DNA of 16,355 bases. Source: a virus. How positions within the stretch are numbered: position 1 is the stretch's first letter; each line of letters begins with the position of its first letter. The position numbers and the translations under genes are program-made. Below are positions 1-16,355 of the stretch, one piece after another. The notes below the pieces were generated by a model, which saw only the letters and a list, made by a program, of their open reading frames with translations, was not told the origin of the DNA and ran no database searches. The stretch lies in the IMG/VR virus record IMGVR_UViG_3300029822_000764, positions 1-16,355 of that record; one strand, 5' to 3'.

Positions 1-86
1 AGATAGTTATACAAAAGAAGAAGTAGAGAAATTGTTTACTGACTATGAGAGCAATTACAATACTAAAATATTGGATTTTGAAGCAA
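1..86. repeat. Terminal overlap, copy 1 (identical to 16270-16355)
   Basis: All 86 nt (AGATAGTTATACAAAAGAAGAAGTAGAG...TTGGATTTTGAAGCAA) match nt 16270-16355 base for base. The overlap lies inside one uninterrupted reading frame, so it looks like the overlap of a circular assembly rather than a biological terminal repeat. Confidence 0.9.
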
Positions 87-7074: not shown

Positions 7075-8484
7075 ATGAATTTACAAGAATATATAAATTT
7101 ATATTATAGTAATAATCCTTACTGGTTTGTAGAAGAGTGTAATAAACCAATACATAAAGATAGGATTCTTAATATAATTAATATACAAGAATATTTGAAT
7201 GGCAGCCATGCTATATTGAATAGAGCAGATACAGTTTATAATGGTAGAACATTTACAACAACAAAGATTGTATTACAATATGCTAAACCACTTTTAGCAT
7301 TTCAGAAAAGCTTTTTATTGAAGAATCCAGTTACGCTAATATGTGAAGATAAAAATACATTAAATGCCATGAATGATGTATATAAACAAGGCCACCTTAA
7401 TATGGTTGATGATAAGATACTTGATAAGATGAATAAGTATGGATTATGTGCAGAGTATTTATATCTAGATGAAGATAGTAACATACAAAGTAAGATAATC
7501 TTACCACAAGATAGTTACCCTGTATTTACAGATAGCATGGATTATGTGTGCTTTATACAGCACTATACAATAATGGCGAGTGGTATAAGTTACTGGACTG
7601 TATTTTATCCAGATAGTGTATATCAATATGATAACATGGGTGGAGATGGGATATATCTTAGGAAGATAAGTAAGAATCTAAGTGGACTACCTGTACTATA
7701 TATTAAACAAGAGAATGAAGAAGATATGACACAGGGTAGAAGTGATTTAGAGGACTATGTAAATATAATAGATAAAATGGAAGAGTTATTGAGTAAATAC
7801 CATGATAGTTTCTATAAATTCTTAAATCCAATTCCTGTAGTTACTGGAACTAAATTAAATATAGATAAAGATGGGAATGGTGCAGTAGATAAAAATATAG
7901 TGGGTTCCTGCTTACAACTGGATGATGGTAGTAGTTTTAATTTAGTATTAAGTAAGATGGACACTAATTCATTAAAAGAACTATATAAAACGTTGATGAA
8001 TAGTTTATTAGACGTTTCTATGACACCTAGTTTGGCTTTCAATGGTAGTAGTAATCCTGCAAATTTGGCAGAGGAATCAATTAGAATGATGTATACATTA
8101 AGTATTTTAAAGGGCAACATGAGTGCTAATTACTTGAAGGAAGGATATTATAGCAGATGGGAACAGATAGAGAAGTTATTGCAATATAAGGATATTAATG
8201 TGGATGGCTTAATGGATTGTACGTTTAATATGAGTATTCCATCATCTGAAAGTGATATAGTAAATAATATAGTTAATCTTTATAATAATGGCTTGATGAG
8301 TATAGAAAGTGCATTAGAGCATAGTCCATATACGAATAATATAGAAGCAGAAATTAAGGCAATACAAGCCAATAAAGAGAATGTGAGTGATACTCAACCT
8401 GTAGATGGCATAAATAATAATATGGATATCAATAATAGTGGTGAATTACAGAGCAATGATAATAATAATATATCTAATGAATGA
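7075..8484 (+). CDS. Portal protein (SPP1 gp6-like)
   Basis: This 469-aa ORF lies directly after terL. The N-terminal pattern ...IINIQEYLNGSHAILNR... and the Asn/Asp-rich disordered C-terminus are typical of SPP1-type portals. Confidence 0.85.
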   Translation: MNLQEYINLYYSNNPYWFVEECNKPIHKDRILNIINIQEYLNGSHAILNRADTVYNGRTFTTTKIVLQYAKPLLAFQKSFLLKNPVTLICEDKNTLNAMNDVYKQGHLNMVDDKILDKMNKYGLCAEYLYLDEDSNIQSKIILPQDSYPVFTDSMDYVCFIQHYTIMASGISYWTVFYPDSVYQYDNMGGDGIYLRKISKNLSGLPVLYIKQENEEDMTQGRSDLEDYVNIIDKMEELLSKYHDSFYKFLNPIPVVTGTKLNIDKDGNGAVDKNIVGSCLQLDDGSSFNLVLSKMDTNSLKELYKTLMNSLLDVSMTPSLAFNGSSNPANLAEESIRMMYTLSILKGNMSANYLKEGYYSRWEQIEKLLQYKDINVDGLMDCTFNMSIPSSESDIVNNIVNLYNNGLMSIESALEHSPYTNNIEAEIKAIQANKENVSDTQPVDGINNNMDINNSGELQSNDNNNISNE

Positions 8485-8647
8485 TGATTGTTAACTTAAA
8501 ATAATTACAGGGTGACAATTAATGTAAAGTGTTGATATAGGTATGGTTGGATATGTAGGTGTTAAATCGTTGATTTTACTGGCGTGTTAAAGAAAAATTT
8601 AAAAAAAATTTTTGAATTAATTTTAAAAAACAAAATATTAAATAAAA

Positions 8648-8700
8648 ATGATATATATTCAGGAGCATTGATATAATACCTTAATATAGAATGATATAAT
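8648..8700 (+). promoter_or_regulatory. Twin extended -10 promoter candidates (TGATATAAT twice)
   Basis: TGATATAAT occurs at 8669-8677 and 8692-8700, 23 bp apart. Both match the TGnTATAAT extended -10 consensus. ATGATA at 8648-8653 is a possible -35 for the first copy, with an 18-nt spacer. Confidence 0.4.
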
Positions 8701-8812
8701 ATACAATATATGCAATATTATCGCAACTTTATACAATACAAACAAACAACAATATATATTAATATAAATGTAATTTATGGTAATAATAGGTGGAATAATT
8801 ACCATTTTTTTA
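8701..8812 (+). ncRNA. Candidate small RNA (about 105-130 nt) between the twin promoters and an intrinsic terminator
   Basis: The terminator is ATGGTAAT (8777-8784) paired with ATTACCAT (8798-8805), followed by T7. The body contains an unstructured CA-rich tract (ACAAACAAACAACAA). There is no ORF and no RBS-linked start. The transcript is purely predicted. Confidence 0.3.
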
Positions 8813-9062
8813 TGTTTAAAATTGGTAAGTTCATATAATCAATATATAAAAGTGGTGTAGATTCAGTTATATCAATAGTTTGCAAGGTATTTATGTATTG
8901 GTTATAACTTCGCTAAAATTTAATTTAGCGATCTTGTAGCAATTCTTAGATATATTTTATTAAGAAAGCACTACTTTATAAATGTATAAAAACACGTAGC
9001 CATCAAGATAAAATTTTGGTTTTATTTAAAGCAAATTACCCCTTTTTTAAAAAAAGTGCTTT

Positions 9063-9072
9063 TAGTTAACTA
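9063..9072. promoter_or_regulatory. 10-bp palindrome TAGTTAACTA upstream of CDS 9157
   Basis: This is a perfect palindrome centred on GTTAAC. The same 10-mer core recurs at 9532-9541 upstream of CDS 9601. Confidence 0.35.
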
Positions 9073-9156
9073 GATTTTTCACACACCAAAAAAATATAAA
9101 TTTCAGGAGGATTATACCTATATATGTAGAATTATAAATAAAAAGGAGATGTTGGC

Positions 9157-11812: not shown

Positions 11813-12835
11813 TTACCATCCCAATAATCCTTTTTCTAGTTCTTTAATGTCTTTAGTATCATATTTTCTTTGTTTAAAATTGTCAAATGTGGTGGTCTTT
11901 GTATTCTCCTTTGGTTCATTAAATCCTTTTAAAAGTTCTCTCATATAGCCAATAATATTATCAACATTTTTATTAATAGCATAGTCGTAGCATTTTTTTA
12001 TCAACTCAATATTATTTTTAGAGTCCTCTAGTAAACAAGTGGCTTCAAGTTCTGTAATAGTATGCTTTGTAAATAATGCTTGGACTTCTTTTATTAAATC
12101 CTGTTTTTGTTGTGTTTCTGATGTAACTGCTCCTGCTGCTATTTCATTTTTATTATTCTTTATTGTAAACTTAATACTTGTTACCTTCCGGCCTGTTTTT
12201 ATTTCTTCAAACTTAAAGGATATATCACTTTTATCTAATTCCTTTTGTGCCTGAAGAATAACTTTCCTTTTAAAATCACCATATAATTTATATTCATGTG
12301 GCTCTATACAAAACATAGTTCTTAATGCTTCAATACTTGCGGTTCTTTCTCCAATTCCTTCATATTGCTTTAATAATTCATATATTCTACATGAATAGTT
12401 GCTATTAAATGTTATTACTTTATCTAATGATAACTTTGTAAATCTATTTTTTAACTGCAATAGATAAGGTTTTAATTTATCATCAAAACAGAGTTCAATA
12501 CTACCATCATTAAAATATTCTGCGGAGGATAGCCATTTTGTTTTTAAAATTGAATTCTCCTTTACAATAACTAACTCCCTATTTCTTAAACTGTCTATAT
12601 GTTGGCTTAATTCGTTAAAACTAATTTTATGTTTTGATAAAATATTATTTATTTCAGTTTGCGTAAATCTATAACTTTTAAAGTCAATATCATCTTTACT
12701 TATTTTAGTAGTTAGTATATAAATTAATCTTTGCTCTTGCAGATTTAATTTATATGATGCTTCAATTATATAGTTAGATTTTACCATCAAGGTTTTATAT
12801 TTTAATAAATCACCCCTAGTAACCATTTTTATCAC
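11813..12835 (-). CDS. Rep_3 / RepB-family theta-replication initiator
   Basis: The N-terminus ...VKSNYIIEASYKLNLQEQRLIYILTTKISKDD... is the classic Rep_3 (initiator RepB) signature. The second winged-helix half has SCRIYELLKQYEGIGERT. Iterons lie 60-155 nt upstream. The start is either GTG 12835 or, more likely, ATG 12826 (AGGGTGA RBS). Confidence 0.85.
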   Translation of the reverse strand: MIKMVTRGDLLKYKTLMVKSNYIIEASYKLNLQEQRLIYILTTKISKDDIDFKSYRFTQTEINNILSKHKISFNELSQHIDSLRNRELVIVKENSILKTKWLSSAEYFNDGSIELCFDDKLKPYLLQLKNRFTKLSLDKVITFNSNYSCRIYELLKQYEGIGERTASIEALRTMFCIEPHEYKLYGDFKRKVILQAQKELDKSDISFKFEEIKTGRKVTSIKFTIKNNKNEIAAGAVTSETQQKQDLIKEVQALFTKHTITELEATCLLEDSKNNIELIKKCYDYAINKNVDNIIGYMRELLKGFNEPKENTKTTTFDNFKQRKYDTKDIKELEKGLLGW

Positions 12836-12895
12836 CCTATACCATTTTATATTATGTCTTTTAAGTATGTCAAGTCATATTTAAAGTCATAATTA

Positions 12896-12990
12896 GTACG
12901 AATTGGTCATATTTCAGTACGAATTGGTCATATTTCAGATTATAATTAGTACGAATTGGTCATATTTCAGTACGAATTGGTCATATTTCA
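12896..12990. repeat. Replication origin iterons: four 21-bp direct repeats GTACGAATTGGTCATATTTCA
   Basis: Exact copies occur at 12896-12916, 12917-12937, 12949-12969 and 12970-12990. They form two abutting pairs separated by the 11-nt GATTATAATTA, equivalent to a 53-bp tandem duplication including ATAATTA. A partial copy (GTCATATTT) is at 12874-12882. Confidence 0.85.
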
Positions 12991-13049
12991 GTTAAATAAC
13001 TATAGATATATCAATGGTTTGTGATATGCCTAAAATATTAAAACTTGTT

Positions 13050-13094
13050 GTATATAAAACATATAAAACAACAACAAGGAAGTTTTGTTGTTGT
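13050..13094 (-). terminator. Rho-independent terminator of the par operon (minus strand)
   Basis: ACAACAACAA (13068-13077) pairs with TTGTTGTTGT (13085-13094): a perfect 10 bp. On the minus strand TTTTATATGTTTTATATA follows. Confidence 0.6.
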
Positions 13095-13108
13095 CCTATG
13101 AGAATTGT

Positions 13109-13393
13109 TTATTCTTCTGTAAAATCTAAATTATCAGTACACCAGTTGCACATTAAATTTATTAACTCATTTCGAGAATAACCACTTTTTTTACTTATTG
13201 CAGTAAGTTTTTTCAGTAAATCATTCTCCATATAGACAGGGAATGTCTTTTTATTGGTCTTATCAATTTTCTTCTTTGCTAGGTGAAATTTACTTTCAAT
13301 ATTGATATTATCTTTTGCAATTTGATCTTTATTCTTAATATTAGAGTTAACATTAATATTATCTTTGATACTATCTTTAAAATTATCACTCAT
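13109..13393 (-). CDS. Ribbon-helix-helix partition or centromere-binding protein (ParG/omega-like), 94 aa
   Basis: It lies immediately downstream of parA, with a GGAGGT RBS. A low-complexity Asn/Lys N-terminal tail is followed by a C-terminal RHH pattern: FPVYMENDLLKKLTAISKKSGYSRNELINLMCNW (beta strand, helix, helix). Confidence 0.65.
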   Translation of the reverse strand: MSDNFKDSIKDNINVNSNIKNKDQIAKDNINIESKFHLAKKKIDKTNKKTFPVYMENDLLKKLTAISKKSGYSRNELINLMCNWCTDNLDFTEE

Positions 13394-13460
13394 TATAAAA
13401 TATTACCTCCATAATCTAATATTATACATTGATATTACATATTAATATGAAATATTTATA

Positions 13461-14216
13461 CTATGAATCTATCCTATATAATAACTCATAATATAAATCA
13501 TTAAATGGTTTACCATAAGTCATATTATATTCTTGAATTGTTTTATGTAATGCCACTGATTCTTTATATTTTACACTATCATAAATTATTGTATCAAACA
13601 ATTTAGCTTTTAATTCTTCTTGTAATACTTCATTAAATTGTTTATTAAATAGGGTTCTTTTTTTAAATCTATTTCGCAGTATTCCTAAGAGTTTTAAATC
13701 GTCAATTAATCCATTTTCTTTTAAATTATTTACCACTTTATCAACCATGTTTAGTCCCTGTAATGCTGATGTGCTATTGTCTATTATTTCAATATAATAG
13801 TTACTCATGACCAATGAATTTTGAACTGTTATTCCTAAGAATGGACTATTATCTATAAGAATATAATCAAAGTCATTGTCAAACTGGGCAAACTTGTTTT
13901 TCAGGATGCTTTCCCTATTTCTTTTGTTGTATAACTCATTTTCAAGTATGGCACTGTCAATAGTATTGCTTATCACATAGATGTATTCATTATAGATACT
14001 AATACAATCATTAAAGGTAACTTTAGGATTAGTATATAAATCATACATATTATATTGGCTATTTATATTGAGTATTTGAGTTATGTTACTTTGACTATCA
14101 TTATCTAGTATTAATACTTTACGTTTTAATTTTGACATAGCTCCAGCCAGATTAATTGTAGATGTGGTCTTTCCAACTCCACCCTTAACATTCAGTAATG
14201 TTATTATTACACTCAT
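13461..14216 (-). CDS. parA: ParA/Soj-family partition ATPase (type Ib size, 251 aa)
   Basis: It has the deviant Walker A motif LNVKGGVGKTTSTINLA and then VLILDNDSQSN. Walker B-like ILIDNSP is also present. Confidence 0.9.
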   Translation of the reverse strand: MSVIITLLNVKGGVGKTTSTINLAGAMSKLKRKVLILDNDSQSNITQILNINSQYNMYDLYTNPKVTFNDCISIYNEYIYVISNTIDSAILENELYNKRNRESILKNKFAQFDNDFDYILIDNSPFLGITVQNSLVMSNYYIEIIDNSTSALQGLNMVDKVVNNLKENGLIDDLKLLGILRNRFKKRTLFNKQFNEVLQEELKAKLFDTIIYDSVKYKESVALHKTIQEYNMTYGKPFNDLYYELLYRIDS

Positions 14217-14281
14217 ATAATATCACCTACCTTTAATGATTATTATATATTATATAAATGAAGATGTAAATATATATTATA

Positions 14282-14316
14282 ATATTACATATTAGTATTA
14301 AGTATTAGTATTAAAA
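14282..14316. promoter_or_regulatory. Candidate par operator or centromere boxes upstream of parA
   Basis: AGTATT occurs three times, at 14294, 14301 and 14307 (6-7-bp period). The 13-mer ATATTACATATTA at 14282-14294 is repeated exactly at 13432-13444, upstream of the RHH gene. Confidence 0.3.
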
Positions 14317-14572
14317 TATTATTAGCGACATATTTTTTAACTTCATAGAGCCATTTTAAGCCACTTCTATTTTTAGGCATACAATTACACTACTTCAAAT
14401 TTTAAGGCACGTTAAATGCGATTTTTTGAGAAATGGACACTTGAAAAACGCTGATAAAACCGTATTCTTAAAAATCAAAAAATCAGGGGTGGATAGTCAT
14501 AAAAAATAAAATTCTAACGGTTTAGAAATGTGCTGAAACTTATAAGTTTACTGGGCTTTTTAAGTAATTATT

Positions 14573-15575
14573 CTAAAAATAAATAAGGTTTATTATATGA
14601 GATAGAAAAGATATTTTTTAAAATGTTAAGAAAATAGAATCATATAAAAATCAAGGATATAACAATGTGTTTAGATACCCATATCCAAAAATAAATAAGG
14701 TTACTTATAGGGGAAGAGAGAGCAAAAAATAAAATTCTCGCAAATAGAAATTAAAATGTTGACCAAATAGAACCATATAAATATTAAGGTTATATCAATA
14801 CTTTATAACAGTGTACTTGAAATTGCTTATAGTAGATAAGATAAAAATGTGAAGTAATAGAAATTAAAATGTTGACCAAATAGAATCATCTTAAAATCTA
14901 TTGGTATTATTTAGTTTTCAGGTAATGCTCCTAAAAATAAATAAGGTTACTTTAAGGGAGAGAGGAAATAAAAATCGGACGAAATAGAAATTAAAATGTT
15001 AAGAAAATAGAAATGTGTAAATATCAAAGTTATAGCAACACTTTACATGACATAGAAATTTATAACTTTTTTACAAAGTGTAGTATATTATTTATATATC
15101 AATAGATACAGCCATTTTAGCTAATGTGTCTCTATAGGAAGAAAAAATGTTGACCAAATAGAAACACCAATAGCGAGAAAATAGAATCCAATGTATATTA
15201 AGCATTTATCAAGGTTTTTAAGAAGATAAAAAAAGTTTATTATATAGAGAATGAATAGAAATTATTTTTGCTAGACAAATAGAAATTAAAAATGTTGACC
15301 AAATAGAAACCTATAATTATCAAGGTTATAACAATGTATATAAGATAATAAAAAAAATTTATTATATGAGTAATGGAAGAAAAAATATTCAACTAAAAAA
15401 TTAGTCCGATCAGGACAACCGCTGATATATATTAGTTTCCACGCCCATGAGGAAAAGACGTTATATGATAATAAAAAATCCGAAAAATAGAAAAACACTG
15501 ACAACATTGATATTACTAGTGTTACAAGTTATTTTGTATGTTTATTTATCAGTAATGGAAAGAAGATAAAACTGT
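14573..15575 (+). repeat. Array of six degenerate 113-151-bp same-orientation repeats with a 31-bp promoter-like core
   Basis: The core AAATAGAAATTAAAATGTTGACCAAATAGAA is at 14742-14772. Near-identical copies are at 14856-14885, 14982-15012 (TTAAGA variant) and 15277-15308 (one extra A). Partial copies are at 14620-14639 and 15144-15163. There are secondary modules CTAAAAATAAATAAGGTT (14573, 14686, 14931) and TTTATTATATGAG (14589, 15358; variant at 15236). No credible ORF is present. Confidence 0.8.
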
Positions 15576-15913
15576 GACGGTAGCAAAAAGTTTTATAATC
15601 ATTTATATTATTAGGGTTTGATACCATGTCAAACATTTTGCTTATAGTGTAATAGTTGAATTTAGTTATCTAAATTAGATGGCCAACTTGAACTATTATA
15701 TATAGTTCACTTATTGTATGTTATGATTGAACATTATTAGTAATTTGCTTGTTTAAGTGGTGCAAATCCACCTTCCTCGAAAATTAATGAAAACAAGCTA
15801 ATTCTGTAGCAGGTAAACTGTAAGATAAATAATATTTTATCTGTACTAAAATTTTAGTATCCTATGGAAGAAGTCATTTTCTATTTTGGACAATAACTTA
15901 AAATAGTTTTAAT

Positions 15914-16043
15914 ATATTTTTTATGCCTAAAATGGGGACTAACATTATTAAGAATTAAATAATATCAATACTTTTAAGAAGAAATTAATTCCTTGTATAT
16001 AGATATAAGGAGTTTTTTTTATATTTTTTATGCCTAAAAATAG
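15914..16043. repeat. 19-nt direct repeat ATATTTTTTATGCCTAAAA (two copies) just upstream of the HTH gene
   Basis: Exact copies are at 15914-15932 and 16021-16039. The 15-mer TATGCCTAAAAATAG (16029-16043) is the exact reverse complement of 14367-14381. Confidence 0.7.
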
Positions 16044-16062
16044 GTAAAGATTTAATGTTGAG

Positions 16063-16266
16063 GTGAGAGAGGTGGAGAGAGAAGAACTTATAAGAAAAAT
16101 AAAATACTTAAAAGAGCATAAAGGAGTTACTTATAGTTTTATAGCAAAACAAGTGGGATTGGACGGAACTACTATAAGTCACTTTGTTACATCGGGTAGG
16201 TATCTTTCTAAAGAAAGAATTAATAAATTAAATAAATTTGTAGGAGGTTATTTAAATGAAATTTGA
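16063..16266 (+). CDS. Small helix-turn-helix DNA-binding protein (67 aa)
   Basis: VTYSFIAKQVGLDGTTISHFVTSGRYLS is a plausible HTH. The start is ambiguous: GTG 16063, or GTG 16072 preceded by AGGTGA. The 3' end overlaps the scaffold ATG by 11 nt, which suggests translational coupling. Confidence 0.6.
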   Translation: MREVEREELIRKIKYLKEHKGVTYSFIAKQVGLDGTTISHFVTSGRYLSKERINKLNKFVGGYLNEI

Positions 16267-16355
16267 CAAAGATAGTTATACAAAAGAAGAAGTAGAGAAA
16301 TTGTTTACTGACTATGAGAGCAATTACAATACTAAAATATTGGATTTTGAAGCAA
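16256..16355 (+). CDS. Phage scaffolding protein, 5' portion (continues at nt 1 across the circular junction)
   Basis: AGGAGG (16242-16247) lies 8 nt upstream of ATG 16256. The frame runs off the window end and continues in frame at 2-421. Confidence 0.7.
   Translation, partial: MKFDKDSYTKEEVEKLFTDYESNYNTKILDFEA
16270..16355. repeat. Terminal overlap, copy 2 (identical to 1-86)
   Basis: Base-for-base identity with nt 1-86. Confidence 0.9.

What the first reader, a model, noticed from the sequence alone, without database searches (positions are those of the whole stretch)
14217..16062. 1.85 kb (about 11% of the element) with no gene: a six-unit array of promoter-like repeats with phased AAATAGAA boxes
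There is no credible ORF between parA and the HTH gene. Within 14573-15575, six same-orientation units recur every 113-151 nt, with -35-like hexamers at 14626, 14759, 14872, 14999, 15150 and 15295. The conserved core is AAATAGAA-ATTAAAATG-TTGACC-AAATAGAA. Its geometry is that of a sigma-A promoter: TTGACC (or TTAAGA), exactly 17 nt, then TATTAA/TATCAA/AATCAA (14782, 15318, 15022, 14649). This is followed by a conserved AAGGTTATAnCAAyA. The -35-like hexamer is bracketed by two AAATAGAA boxes 23 bp apart (24 in one unit). The same 23-24-bp phasing links further boxes (15156 to 15179; 15253 to 15277 to 15301). I count about 15 ATAGAA boxes between 14602 and 15492, all on one strand. All units point toward the HTH-scaffold-capsid operon. 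Three readings are possible. It could be an unusually large centromere or copy-control array for the RHH or HTH protein. It could be a battery of repressor-gated tandem promoters producing small RNAs or boosting late expression. It could be a TerS recognition (pac) region. I cannot match it to any described plasmid or phage control region.
Basis: seen in the sequence. Interest (0 to 1): 0.8.

Follow-up and report, generated by a model that had tools for sequence, protein, structure and literature searches.

The report
Hypervariable promoter-cassette repeat array, genes lost
The gene-free 1.85 kb of this small circular Clostridium phage-plasmid holds a real, fast-changing array of repeats that look like the promoter-bearing boundaries of a tandem cluster of tiny zinc-ribbon genes still present in relatives; it is not a centromere, a copy-control array or a known RNA.

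Summary
Every coordinate, spacing and box count was reproduced, and the motifs are far above chance. All 13 AAATAGAA copies in the window lie in the gap (4.1 expected).

The window is a 16,269-bp circle carrying Rep_3, iterons, RHH, ParA and an HTH-scaffold-SU10 capsid-TerL-portal operon.

Relatives with 36-76% capsid identity have an ORF-poor gap with a same-strand repeat array in the same position. This holds whatever their replicon or integrase. In eight relatives the array holds 2-6 full or truncated copies of a ~60-aa zinc-ribbon mini-gene. Many of these reading frames stop at or just before, or read through, a box equivalent to AAATAGAA.

In Clostridium sp. MT-14 that box is the -35 (TAGAAA) of TAGAAA-17/18-TATAAT promoters. 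The window keeps TAGAA-N18-TATAnC in four units, has lost all zinc-ribbon coding, and has no stable unit RNA fold.

The array exists in at least five alleles, on a Rep-ParA stretch and two gap segments that are 100% identical in DNA. A terminator separates the gap from the HTH gene.

Best reading: a degenerate promoter/cassette-boundary array remodelled by recombination. Its function is unproven.

The parts
14242..14270 (-). Promoter-like site for the parA-RHH operon (TTTACA-17-TATAAT)
   Evidence: 11 of 12 matches, the best site in the region.
14290..14325 (.). TATTAG(TATTAAG) short repeats just upstream of the parA -35. This is the more likely RHH operator or centromere (inferred).
   Evidence: TRF (14290-14314, period 13, 100% matches); sequence.
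14367..14381 (-). Operator-like 15-mer TATGCCTAAAAATAG, the inverted partner of the copy at 16029-16043
   Evidence: two exact copies. ATGCCTAAAA occurs 4 times against 0.13 expected, all intergenic.
14516..15340 (+). Hypervariable part of the array: whole units gained, lost or replaced among sister elements
   Evidence: Rep, iterons, RHH, ParA, 14217-14515 and 15341-15700 are 100% (99.7-100% for 15341-15700) identical in DNA. The alignable pieces of the array are only 94.8-98.2% identical and the gap length ranges 1396-2119 bp.
14608..14665 (+). Unit 1 core: AAAATG-TTAAGA-AAATAGAA-N-ATCAAGGATATAAC
   Evidence: (D1), (TAGAAT-N17-TATAAC).
14741..14798 (+). Unit 2 core: two boxes 23 nt apart, word TTGACC, TAGAAC-N17-TATATC
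14854..14911 (+). Unit 3 core: two boxes 23 nt apart (TAGAAA-17-TAGAAT), no downstream TATAnC block
14981..15038 (+). Unit 4 core: two boxes, word TTAAGA, TAGAAA-N17-TATAGC
15155..15212 (+). Unit 5 core: two boxes 23 nt apart, with the flanks otherwise unrelated to the other units. In sister element L002 the word just upstream (15150-15155, TTGACC here) reads TCACGA between identical flanks.
15277..15334 (+). Unit 6 core: three boxes at 24-nt spacing (the first at 15253, just upstream), word TTGACC, TAGAAA-N17-TATAAC
15341..15600 (+). Conserved, degenerate tail of the array. It includes the unit 15475-15546, which best matches the unit profile built from relatives.
   Evidence: nhmmer E = 0.0024; 99.7-100% identical among sister elements.
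15447..15569 (+). 40-aa ORF with a hydrophobic stretch. Probably spurious: it coincides with a canonical repeat unit and has no good ribosome-binding site.
15650..15698 (+). Inverted repeat or hairpin with 24-nt arms
   Evidence: I5.: -18.5 kcal/mol, z = -3.3.
15740..15804 (+). Nested hairpin with a tRNA T-arm-like inner stem-loop followed by CUUCCUCGA. It is conserved upstream of the capsid operon in relatives.
   Evidence: outer stem covaries (GCTTG/CAAGC, GTTAG/CTAAC, ACCG/CGGT, ACCGC/GCGGT); weak match to the tmRNA model 3' end in L027 and L020; it lies inside the integrated L036 element, so it is not the attP core.
15887..15915 (+). Promoter-like TGGACA-17-TAATAT, followed by the first of two 26-nt direct repeats (15907-15932 and 16014-16039)
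   Evidence: (D16).
15987..16020 (+). Terminator-like hairpin (12-bp stem) plus U8, directly upstream of the HTH gene
   Evidence: -14.1 kcal/mol, z = -3.7. Equivalent hairpin-plus-U-run in L036, L037 and L038.
16029..16043 (+). Operator-like 15-mer TATGCCTAAAAATAG between the terminator and the HTH ribosome-binding site
16063..16266 (+). 67-aa HTH gene, first gene of the rightward scaffold-capsid operon. The scaffold gene runs across the circle junction.
12874..12991 (+). Rep_3 iterons (21/53-nt period), outside the finding and unrelated in sequence to the array

Best explanation
What it is: the array is the hypervariable 'cassette' region that this family of small capsid-encoding Clostridium elements carries just upstream of its HTH-scaffold-capsid operon.

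The repeat unit is one cassette boundary with four parts:
1. A short variable 'word' (TTGACC, TTAAGA, TCGGACG, GCTAGAC, TTCTCGC and others). In relatives this is the last codons of a ~60-aa zinc-ribbon mini-gene.
2. The AAATAGAA box. In relatives it coincides with that gene's stop region and is also the -35-like hexamer (TAGAAA) of the next promoter.
3. The ATCAAGGTTATAnCAA block, 17 nt downstream, which carries the -10-like hexamer. It reads TATAAT in one relative and TATAAC, TATATC or TATAGC here.
4. A TTATTATATGAG / ACTTTAAGGG block and a purine-rich leader.

In this window the coding bodies have been deleted, so six to nine boundaries lie head to tail and nothing is encoded.

How it works:
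- Shown: the short repeated boxes act as break-and-join points at which units are lost, gained and swapped. This gives at least five array alleles while the sequences on either side stay identical.
- Inferred: the modules are weak or factor-dependent rightward promoters. Their transcripts run into the conserved leader (hairpin at 15650, T-arm-like hairpin at 15740) and stop at the terminator at 15987-16020 unless antiterminated.

The origin, the homology and the hypervariability are shown. Promoter activity and any present-day role are inferred.
For: - Reality of the repeats.
- Position is conserved but replicon-independent. ORF-poor gaps with same-strand arrays lie upstream of scaffold/MCP in:
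  - L012, Clostridium ganghwense;
  - L020, L027, L029, L032, L034 and L035;
  - L036, the C. tyrobutyricum chromosome, where an integrase gene adjoins the locus;
  - L037 and L038.
- Sequence links:
  - Two 20-mers are shared with the L032 array: AAATGTTAAGAAAATAGAAA and AAAATGTCACGAAATAGAAA. The longest match in 100 shuffles was 17.
  - The same words precede the box in L036-L038.
  - A profile of 13 units from L036-L038 hits window 15475-15546 (E = 0.0024), window 14861-14959 (E = 0.029) and the L002 array (E = 8e-4).
- Mini-genes: 53-69-aa CxxC...CxxC proteins form only 6 clusters among 5.8 billion proteins. tblastn finds 1-6 full or 5'-truncated copies (two or more in seven of them) in the arrays of L019, L020, L027, L029, L032, L036, L037 and L038, and none in the window or in L002, L005 or L008. 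Their frames end at or read through the box.
- Box as -35: TAGAAA-17/18-TATAAT occurs four times in the L038 array, where promoter-like sites number 15 against 9.2 in shuffles. TAGAA-N18-TATANY occurs four times in the window, all in the array on the + strand, against 0.69 expected. L027 (TTGAGA-18-TGnTATAAT) has strong promoter-like pairs and L012 weaker ones (9 of 12), at other positions in their units.
- Hypervariability.
- Terminator before the HTH gene.
Against: - In the window itself no unit has a canonical -10: every candidate ends in A or C. Promoter-like sites are not enriched.
- The units do not fold stably (z = -0.4 to +1.3) and no terminator lies inside the array.
- Profile similarity to relatives is modest (E from 1e-3 to 3e-2). 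A profile of the six window units finds only L032, at E = 0.12.
- The eleven perfect + strand AAATAGAA copies are better conserved than their flanks. A purely decaying relic would not show that, so the box may still have a function.
- No expression or binding data exist.
Confidence: 0.5

Rival explanations
1. The AAATAGAA boxes are binding sites for an element regulator. The small HTH at the head of the operon is a candidate because it recurs in several relatives (window, L020, L029); the RHH is another candidate. The array would then act as a multi-site operator or titration sponge that sets immunity or induction specificity.
For: - The box is perfectly conserved in 11 + strand copies while its flanks diverge, for example in unit 5.
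- Direct repeats fall at 23-24-bp phasing.
- The box is part of the exact 15-mer TATGCCTAAAAATAG, found in inverted orientation next to the parA promoter and in front of the HTH gene.
- At least five alleles sit between identical flanks, and there are clustered changes in one operator-like site (15918-15935). Both suggest diversifying selection.
Against: - No binding data exist.
- The box-to-partner geometry changes between relatives.
- In relatives the box is read in all three frames as an ORF end and also serves as a -35.
- The ATGCCTAAAA motif, the better operator candidate, is absent from the six unit cores.
Confidence: 0.2
2. Each unit is a small-RNA gene, with a variable 5' segment and a conserved 3' box region. 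The array would then be a battery of regulatory or guide-like RNAs.
For: - Strong promoter-like sites followed by box-plus-hairpin occur in L027, L038 and L032 units.
- The purine-rich-plus-word segment in front of a conserved box is variable.
- The + strand purine skew matches that of the transcribed strand elsewhere in the element.
Against: - Window units have no stable fold and no terminators.
- There is no excess antisense complementarity to the rest of the element: 9 twelve-mers against 11.2 in shuffles.
- No Rfam family matches.
- Hairpins in relatives differ in position and sequence, as ordinary gene-end hairpins do.
Confidence: 0.1
3. The array is inert relic or stuffer DNA: tandem duplicates of gene ends with no present function, kept only by recent ancestry.
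For: - All coding capacity is lost.
- The -10 hexamers are defective.
- Gap length varies freely from 1396 to 2119 bp.
Against: - ORF-less units of 92-110 nt are the rule across relatives with only 48-76% capsid identity. Neutral DNA should have been randomised at that distance.
- The box is more conserved than its flanks.
Confidence: 0.12
4. The array is a recognition region (pac) for the small terminase subunit.
For: It is a repeated, one-strand, A-tract-rich array in a capsid-encoding element. The TerS candidate (140 aa) has a conserved C-terminal half and a divergent N-terminal half compared with L020.
Against: - The array lies about 5.7 kb upstream of terS on the circle rather than in or next to it.
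- Array alleles differ greatly while TerS is 86.6-94.3% identical where it could be aligned.
- Contig ends of sister assemblies do not cluster at the array.
Confidence: 0.05
5. The array is a plasmid centromere, or an iteron-type copy-control array, for the ParA/RHH or Rep_3 proteins.
For: It lies next to parA, and it consists of direct repeats at roughly two helical turns.
Against: - Homologous arrays occur in relatives whose array-adjacent maintenance genes are an integrase or a primase-polymerase-like gene rather than ParA/Rep_3.
- In L012 the array is not adjacent to parA.
- The Rep_3 iterons are a different 21-mer, confined to 12874-12991.
- A separate short-repeat block abuts the parA promoter.
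- The array differs among elements whose Rep, iterons, RHH and ParA are 100% identical.
Confidence: 0.03

Closest known systems
Clusters of very small genes with individual promoters in phage early or accessory regions (for example the SPO1 host-takeover module, moron loci, and hypervariable anti-defence loci followed by an HTH gene). Recalled from general knowledge, not tested.
   Same: Many tiny ORFs in relatives, each with its own promoter-like site. All are on one strand, next to a small HTH gene, and content turns over quickly among close relatives.
   Different: Here the ORFs are gone and only the boundaries remain. The units are 5'-truncated tandem copies of one mini-gene family rather than unrelated genes. 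No function of the zinc-ribbon peptides is known.
Iteron control arrays of theta plasmids (P1 incA, F incC) and Rep_3 origins
   Same: Same-strand direct repeats at about 22-24-bp phasing on a Rep_3 plasmid.
   Different: The sequence is unrelated to this element's own iterons. The array is present in relatives with other replicons, and it varies while Rep and the iterons are identical.
Type Ib (ParA plus RHH) centromeres, and F sopC tandem repeats
   Same: A repeat array upstream of a parA-RHH operon.
   Different: The array begins about 350 bp from the parA start. It occurs in relatives where no ParA gene adjoins it or was found in the fetched locus. A better candidate (the TATTAG repeats) abuts the promoter.
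Tandem small-RNA gene arrays (for example Listeria LhrC1-4). Recalled from general knowledge.
   Same: Units of about 100-150 nt, each with a promoter-like element, head to tail in one intergenic region.
   Different: The window units have no terminators, no stable conserved fold and no detectable targets.
Integron cassette arrays with attC sites
   Same: Same-orientation short modules bounding small cassettes. Whole-cassette gain and loss among near-identical backbones. Hairpin-forming boundaries in some relatives.
   Different: The window has no integron-type integrase. The boundaries carry promoter-like hexamers. The 'cassettes' are paralogues or truncations of one gene.
Lambda-type late control (a promoter followed by a terminator in front of the late operon) and the RNA-based immunity leaders of P4, P1 and N15. 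Recalled from general knowledge.
   Same: A long untranslated leader with structured elements and a terminator immediately upstream of the structural operon. One element is tRNA-like.
   Different: No antiterminator or processed RNA has been identified, there is no sequence or Rfam similarity, and the repeat array has no counterpart in those systems.

Membership tests
   TTGACC in four units and TTAAGA in two.
   The hexamers are AATCAA, TATTAA, AATCTA, TATCAA, GCGAGA and TATCAA. None ends in T and two have no resemblance.
   In L032 and L038 the same word (GTTAAGA) is not followed by a -10 at 16-18 nt (sequences). The conserved pairing is instead box TAGAAA-17/18-TATAAT.
Sigma-A promoter, box-based reading (TAGAAA-17-TATAnC) | Both hexamers at the correct spacing, with a canonical -10 | tested here: inconclusive
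   Four units have TAGAA-N18-TATANY, but position 6 is C in all four. The homologous units in L038 are canonical, with 10 of 12 matches.
Type Ib plasmid centromere (ParA/RHH) | Co-occurs with, and sits at the promoter of, the par operon | tested here: not met
   Arrays occur next to an integrase or a primase-polymerase-like gene instead of ParA. The array is not adjacent to parA in L012, and it starts about 300 bp upstream of the parA promoter here.
Type Ib plasmid centromere (ParA/RHH) | Bound by the RHH centromere-binding protein | not testable with these tools
   Needs EMSA or footprinting.
Rep_3 iteron or copy-control array | The repeats share the origin iteron sequence | tested here: not met
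   GTCATATTTCAGTACGAATTG, with up to 3 mismatches, is found only at 12906 and 12959.
Known RNA families (Rfam 15) | A match at or near the gathering score | tested here: not met
   No hit at E <= 1 in the whole window. In the gap alone only chance-level hits appear, at E of 1.5 or more.
Tandem small-RNA genes | Each unit has a terminator and a fold more stable than shuffles | tested here: not met
   No terminator-like sites. z-scores run from -0.4 to +1.3.
Integron cassette array | An integron integrase adjacent to the array | tested here: not met
   No tyrosine-recombinase domain was found in the 20 window ORFs that were scanned, which include all the long non-overlapping ones.
Mini-gene cassette array of the SU10-capsid Clostridium element family (defined here) | Same-strand array in the ORF-poor gap upstream of (HTH-)scaffold-capsid, followed by the T-arm-like hairpin | tested here: met
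   Window: array at 14573-15575, hairpin at 15740-15804. The same order holds in L012, L020, L027, L029, L036 and L038.
Mini-gene cassette array of the SU10-capsid Clostridium element family (defined here) | Units homologous in sequence (shared words plus box) | tested here: met
   Shared 20-mers exceed every shuffle. nhmmer E-values run from 8e-4 to 2.4e-3. The evidence is modest but consistent.
Mini-gene cassette array of the SU10-capsid Clostridium element family (defined here) | Contains zinc-ribbon mini-gene copies | tested here: not met
   tblastn at E <= 0.05 finds none in the window, L002, L005 or L008, against 1-6 copies in each of eight relatives. The window is therefore an ORF-less derivative.

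The most novel reading that the evidence does not exclude
The array may be a working specificity determinant rather than a relic. Under this reading each unit is an independently promoted short leader or decoy module whose box is recognised by a dedicated factor, either the small HTH seen in several relatives or a host or helper protein. The set of units would then fix which superinfecting or helper elements can trigger read-through of the terminator into the capsid operon. Diversifying selection would explain at least five array alleles, and the clustered changes in one operator-like site, between flanks that are identical in DNA.
Probability: 0.2. Interest if true: 0.8.

Novelty: new variant of a known kind. 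Interest (0 to 1): 0.55.

Why it matters
- It turns an unexplained 11% of a mini phage-plasmid into a defined locus. The locus recurs in plasmid-borne and chromosomally integrated forms across several Clostridium species and other Firmicutes.
- That locus is a fast-evolving cassette array sitting in front of a structured leader and a terminator that gate the capsid operon.
- If the modules are active, this is a compact system for studying how tandem promoters or decoy sites, and their rapid turnover, tune lysis-lysogeny or helper dependence in Gram-positive phage-plasmids.
- It also brings to light a zinc-ribbon mini-protein family with only six clusters in 5.8 billion proteins and no annotated function. 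The family is always found at this locus in the relatives examined.
- C. tyrobutyricum carries a related element in a complete genome, which gives a cultivable host in which to test these ideas.

Tried and rejected
1. An exact-pattern scan of IMG/VR for the core gave one hit (L001). It lies inside a tape-measure-like coding region and is a chance match.
2. ParA-based locus search in IMG/VR found nothing. ParA relatives L013 and L014 are unrelated plasmids.
3. I thought the units resembled the 5' end of the HTH gene. Local alignment against shuffles gave z <= 1.8, so I rejected this.
4. Antisense or guide idea: there is no excess complementarity between the array and the rest of the element.
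5. I first read the T-arm-like motif as a vestigial attP (tRNA or tmRNA 3' end). I rejected this because the motif stays internal, next to the HTH gene, in the chromosomally integrated C. tyrobutyricum element.
6. The 40-aa hydrophobic ORF (15447-15569) as a real gene. I rejected it because it overlies a canonical repeat unit, has no ribosome-binding site and has no family hit.
7. A larger parent protein for the zinc-ribbon fragments. PHROG hits to the C-termini of 214-276-aa families were not borne out: only 53-69-aa proteins exist in the large database.
8. An element-encoded sigma factor or RNA polymerase that could read unusual promoters. Pfam, PHROGs, NCBIfam and PDB sequence searches found none.
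9. Four literature searches found no description of this element family or array.
10. A profile of the six window units alone is too weak to find relatives (E = 0.12). The link needed intermediate relatives.
Full report
**The element.** The window has an exact 86-bp terminal overlap, so it is a 16,269-bp circle, and it has low G+C. Its genes are:
- a long rightward operon: a 67-aa HTH (16063-16266), a scaffold gene across the junction, an SU10-type major capsid protein, a BhlA-type holin, a TerS candidate, TerL, an SPP1-type portal, and a Big_2/YomX-like 570-aa protein;
- on the other strand: a Rep_3 initiator, an RHH protein and ParA.

Rep_3-type iterons with a 21/53-nt period lie at 12874-12991. 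The finding covers the 1,846 bp between parA and the HTH gene.

**Check of the observation.**
- The six hexamers are at the stated coordinates, each with a 17-nt spacer to the stated second hexamers.
- Unit spacing is 133, 113, 127, 151 and 145 nt.
- There are fifteen + strand ATAGAA between 14602 and 15487, with 23/24-nt steps.
- AAATAGAA occurs 13 times against 4.1 expected, all 13 in the gap. The 18-nt core occurs 6 times against 0.17 expected.
- The gap has no credible ORF, no tRNA and no Rfam family. It has no blastn match in the plasmid or phage collections.

One caveat applies. The repeat core has no indels, so the constant 17-nt spacing follows from repetition and is not separate evidence for a promoter.

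**Are the units sigma-A promoters as drawn?** This is weakly supported.
- The -35-like words are good in four units. Every proposed -10 (AATCAA, TATTAA, AATCTA, TATCAA, GCGAGA, TATCAA) lacks the final T, and two have no resemblance.
- The consensus scan finds 14 promoter-like sites in 14100-16355 against 17.3 in shuffles. The best site is the leftward parA promoter, TTTACA-17-TATAAT at 14270-14242.
- The six units do not fold better than shuffles, with z from -0.4 to +1.3.

**Sister elements: a hot spot between identical flanks.** ParA with the identical protein sequence is found on 22 contigs from several projects.
- Between the window and L002, L005, L008 and L009, several segments are 100% identical in DNA (99.7-100% for the last): Rep, the iterons, RHH, ParA, the left part of the gap (14217-14515) and 15341-15700. 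Structural genes range from about 86% to 99.7% identical.
- Between those identical flanks, the array (14516-15340) differs by gain, loss and replacement of whole units. The gap measures 1396, 1437, 1573, 1716, 1855 or 2119 bp, and these lengths correspond to at least five alleles.
- Breakpoints fall at the boxes.
- At one orthologous position only the 'word' differs, TTGACC against TCACGA, between identical flanks.
- One operator-like site (15918-15935) also carries a cluster of changes.

**More distant relatives: same place, same architecture.** Searching with the capsid protein found relatives at 36-76% identity. An ORF-poor gap of 1-2.7 kb with a same-strand repeat array lies upstream of scaffold/capsid in each of these:
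- L012, Clostridium ganghwense, with six units;
- L020, L027 (13 units), L029, L032, L034 and L035;
- L036, a complete C. tyrobutyricum chromosome, where an integrase gene adjoins the locus;
- L037 and L038, the latter from Clostridium sp. MT-14, with seven units of 92-152 nt.

The neighbouring maintenance genes differ: Rep_3/ParA here, a primase-polymerase-like gene in L020, and integrases in L036 and L038. That is the main argument against a centromere or copy-control role.

**Sequence links to the window.**
- The window family shares two 20-mers with the L032 array; the longest match in 100 shuffles was 17.
- The same words precede the box in L036-L038: TTCTAACGG, GTTAAGA, TTCGGACGA, ATCCGAAA, TTCTGTATA, GTCACGA and GTTTGA.
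- A profile of 13 units from L036-L038 hits window 15475-15546 (E = 0.0024), window 14861-14959 (E = 0.029) and the sister arrays (E = 8e-4).
- A profile of the six window units alone is too weak, finding only L032 at E = 0.12. I therefore treat the homology as supported but not strong.

**What the units are in relatives.**
- The arrays of L019, L020, L027, L029, L032, L036, L037 and L038 hold one to six full or 5'-truncated copies (two or more in all but L038) of a 53-69-aa CxxC...CxxC protein with a basic tail. This family has only six clusters among 5.8 billion proteins.
- Their reading frames stop at or just before the box, or read through it. For example, TTA GAA AAT CCT ... TAG encodes LENPANLHE*. 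In different copies the box is read in all three frames. The box is therefore a DNA-level element at gene ends, not a conserved peptide.
- In L038 the box is the -35 of TAGAAA-17/18-TATAAT pairs in four units. Promoter-like sites there number 15 against 9.2 in shuffles.
- L027 (TTGAGA-18-TGnTATAAT, 10-11 of 12) and L012 (9 of 12) also have recurrent promoter-like pairs in their units.
- Many units in relatives are too short (92-110 nt) to hold any ORF.
- The window keeps TAGAA-N18-TATAnC in four units, all in the array, against 0.69 expected.
- No zinc-ribbon coding remains in the window family.

**What else is in the gap.**
- Next to the parA promoter lie TATTAG short repeats (14290-14325). 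These are the better candidate for the RHH operator or centromere (inferred).
- ATGCCTAAAA occurs four times against 0.13 expected. All copies are intergenic: after the iterons, near the parA promoter, and twice before the HTH gene.
- Downstream of the array lie three structures:
  1. a hairpin with 24-nt arms at 15650-15698;
  2. a nested hairpin with a tRNA T-arm-like core at 15740-15804, conserved with covarying outer stems in seven distinct sequences and weakly matching the tmRNA model 3' end in two relatives;
  3. a terminator-like hairpin plus U8 at 15987-16020 (-14.1 kcal/mol, z = -3.7), which has counterparts in L036, L037 and L038.
- The T-arm element is internal in the integrated C. 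tyrobutyricum element, so it is not an attP core.
- The terminator means that transcription from the array cannot simply boost the capsid operon. Read-through would need antitermination (inference).

**Conclusion.** The array is best read as a degenerate cassette-boundary and promoter array: tandem copies of the junction between tiny genes, with the genes themselves deleted. Recombination at the short boxes remodels it quickly. Its origin, homology and hypervariability are shown. Promoter activity and any present function are inferred.

The perfect conservation of the box, the persistence of ORF-less units across distant relatives, and the many alleles on one backbone keep a functional reading open, either as an operator or decoy array or as short leader RNAs.

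The centromere, copy-control and known-RNA readings are disfavoured by test. The pac reading is untested and has nothing to support it. No description of this locus or element family was found.

Noticed in passing
window 1-86 and 16270-16355: An exact 86-bp terminal overlap shows the window is a circular 16,269-bp molecule. The 144-aa scaffold gene runs across the junction (16256 to 421).
   Followed up: yes
window 15740-15804; L012:11575-11640; L020:~2650-2720; L027:~1640-1710; L029:~1190-1260; L036:~8085-8150: A conserved nested hairpin lies upstream of the capsid operon. It has an outer stem with compensatory changes, an inner tRNA T-arm-like stem-loop (GTGGG-TTCGAAT-CCCAC type), and then CYYCCTCSA. 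It weakly matches the 3' end of the tmRNA model in two relatives. It is internal in an integrated relative, so it is not an attachment-site core. Its function is unknown.
   Followed up: partly
window 15987-16020: A terminator-like hairpin (12-bp stem, U8 tail) sits directly upstream of the HTH gene and its operator-like 15-mer, with positional counterparts in L036, L037 and L038. No good promoter lies between it and the gene. This suggests that the capsid operon is reached by read-through or antitermination.
   Followed up: partly
window 13026-13035, 14371-14380 (-), 15923-15932, 16030-16039: ATGCCTAAAA occurs four times against 0.13 expected, always intergenic: beside the iterons, near the parA promoter, and twice before the HTH gene. 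Two copies are an exact inverted 15-mer pair 1.65 kb apart. It is a likely operator of an unidentified regulator.
   Followed up: partly
window 8485-9156: This is a second ORF-poor stretch, between the portal gene and the next gene, with low-complexity tandem repeats. It is only 79% identical between sister elements, while the adjacent portal gene is 99.7% identical.
   Followed up: no
window 11813-14515 and 15341-15700 versus L002, L005, L008, L009: Rep, the iterons, RHH, ParA and parts of the gap are 99.7-100% identical in DNA among sister elements (100% except 15341-15700 in two of them) whose structural genes are as little as 86-96% identical. This indicates a recently shared or exchanged maintenance module.
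   Followed up: partly
L037:3-191; L029:594-830; proteins P0121-P0126: A family of 53-69-aa double-CxxC (zinc-ribbon) proteins with basic tails has only six clusters in the 5.8-billion-protein collection. In the relatives examined it is found in these arrays, often as 5'-truncated copies without start codons.
   Followed up: partly
L012:10974-11372: The Clostridium ganghwense relative has six units of 62-86 nt. Each carries AAAAAATGTMCACAAAA, then 14 nt, then TATACTATTATAATG, which contains a perfect TATAAT. The array is followed by a terminator-like hairpin. The architecture is the same but the sequence is mostly different.
   Followed up: partly
L012:7876-7951 (-): A sub-threshold match to the pT181-type countertranscript RNA model (41.6 bits against a gathering score of 56, E = 0.021) lies just upstream of the 437-aa gene that may be this relative's replication gene.
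   Followed up: no
window 14290-14325: TATTAGTATTAAG tandem copies lie immediately upstream of the -35 of the parA promoter. They are the natural candidate for the RHH (ParG/Arc-like) operator or centromere.
   Followed up: no
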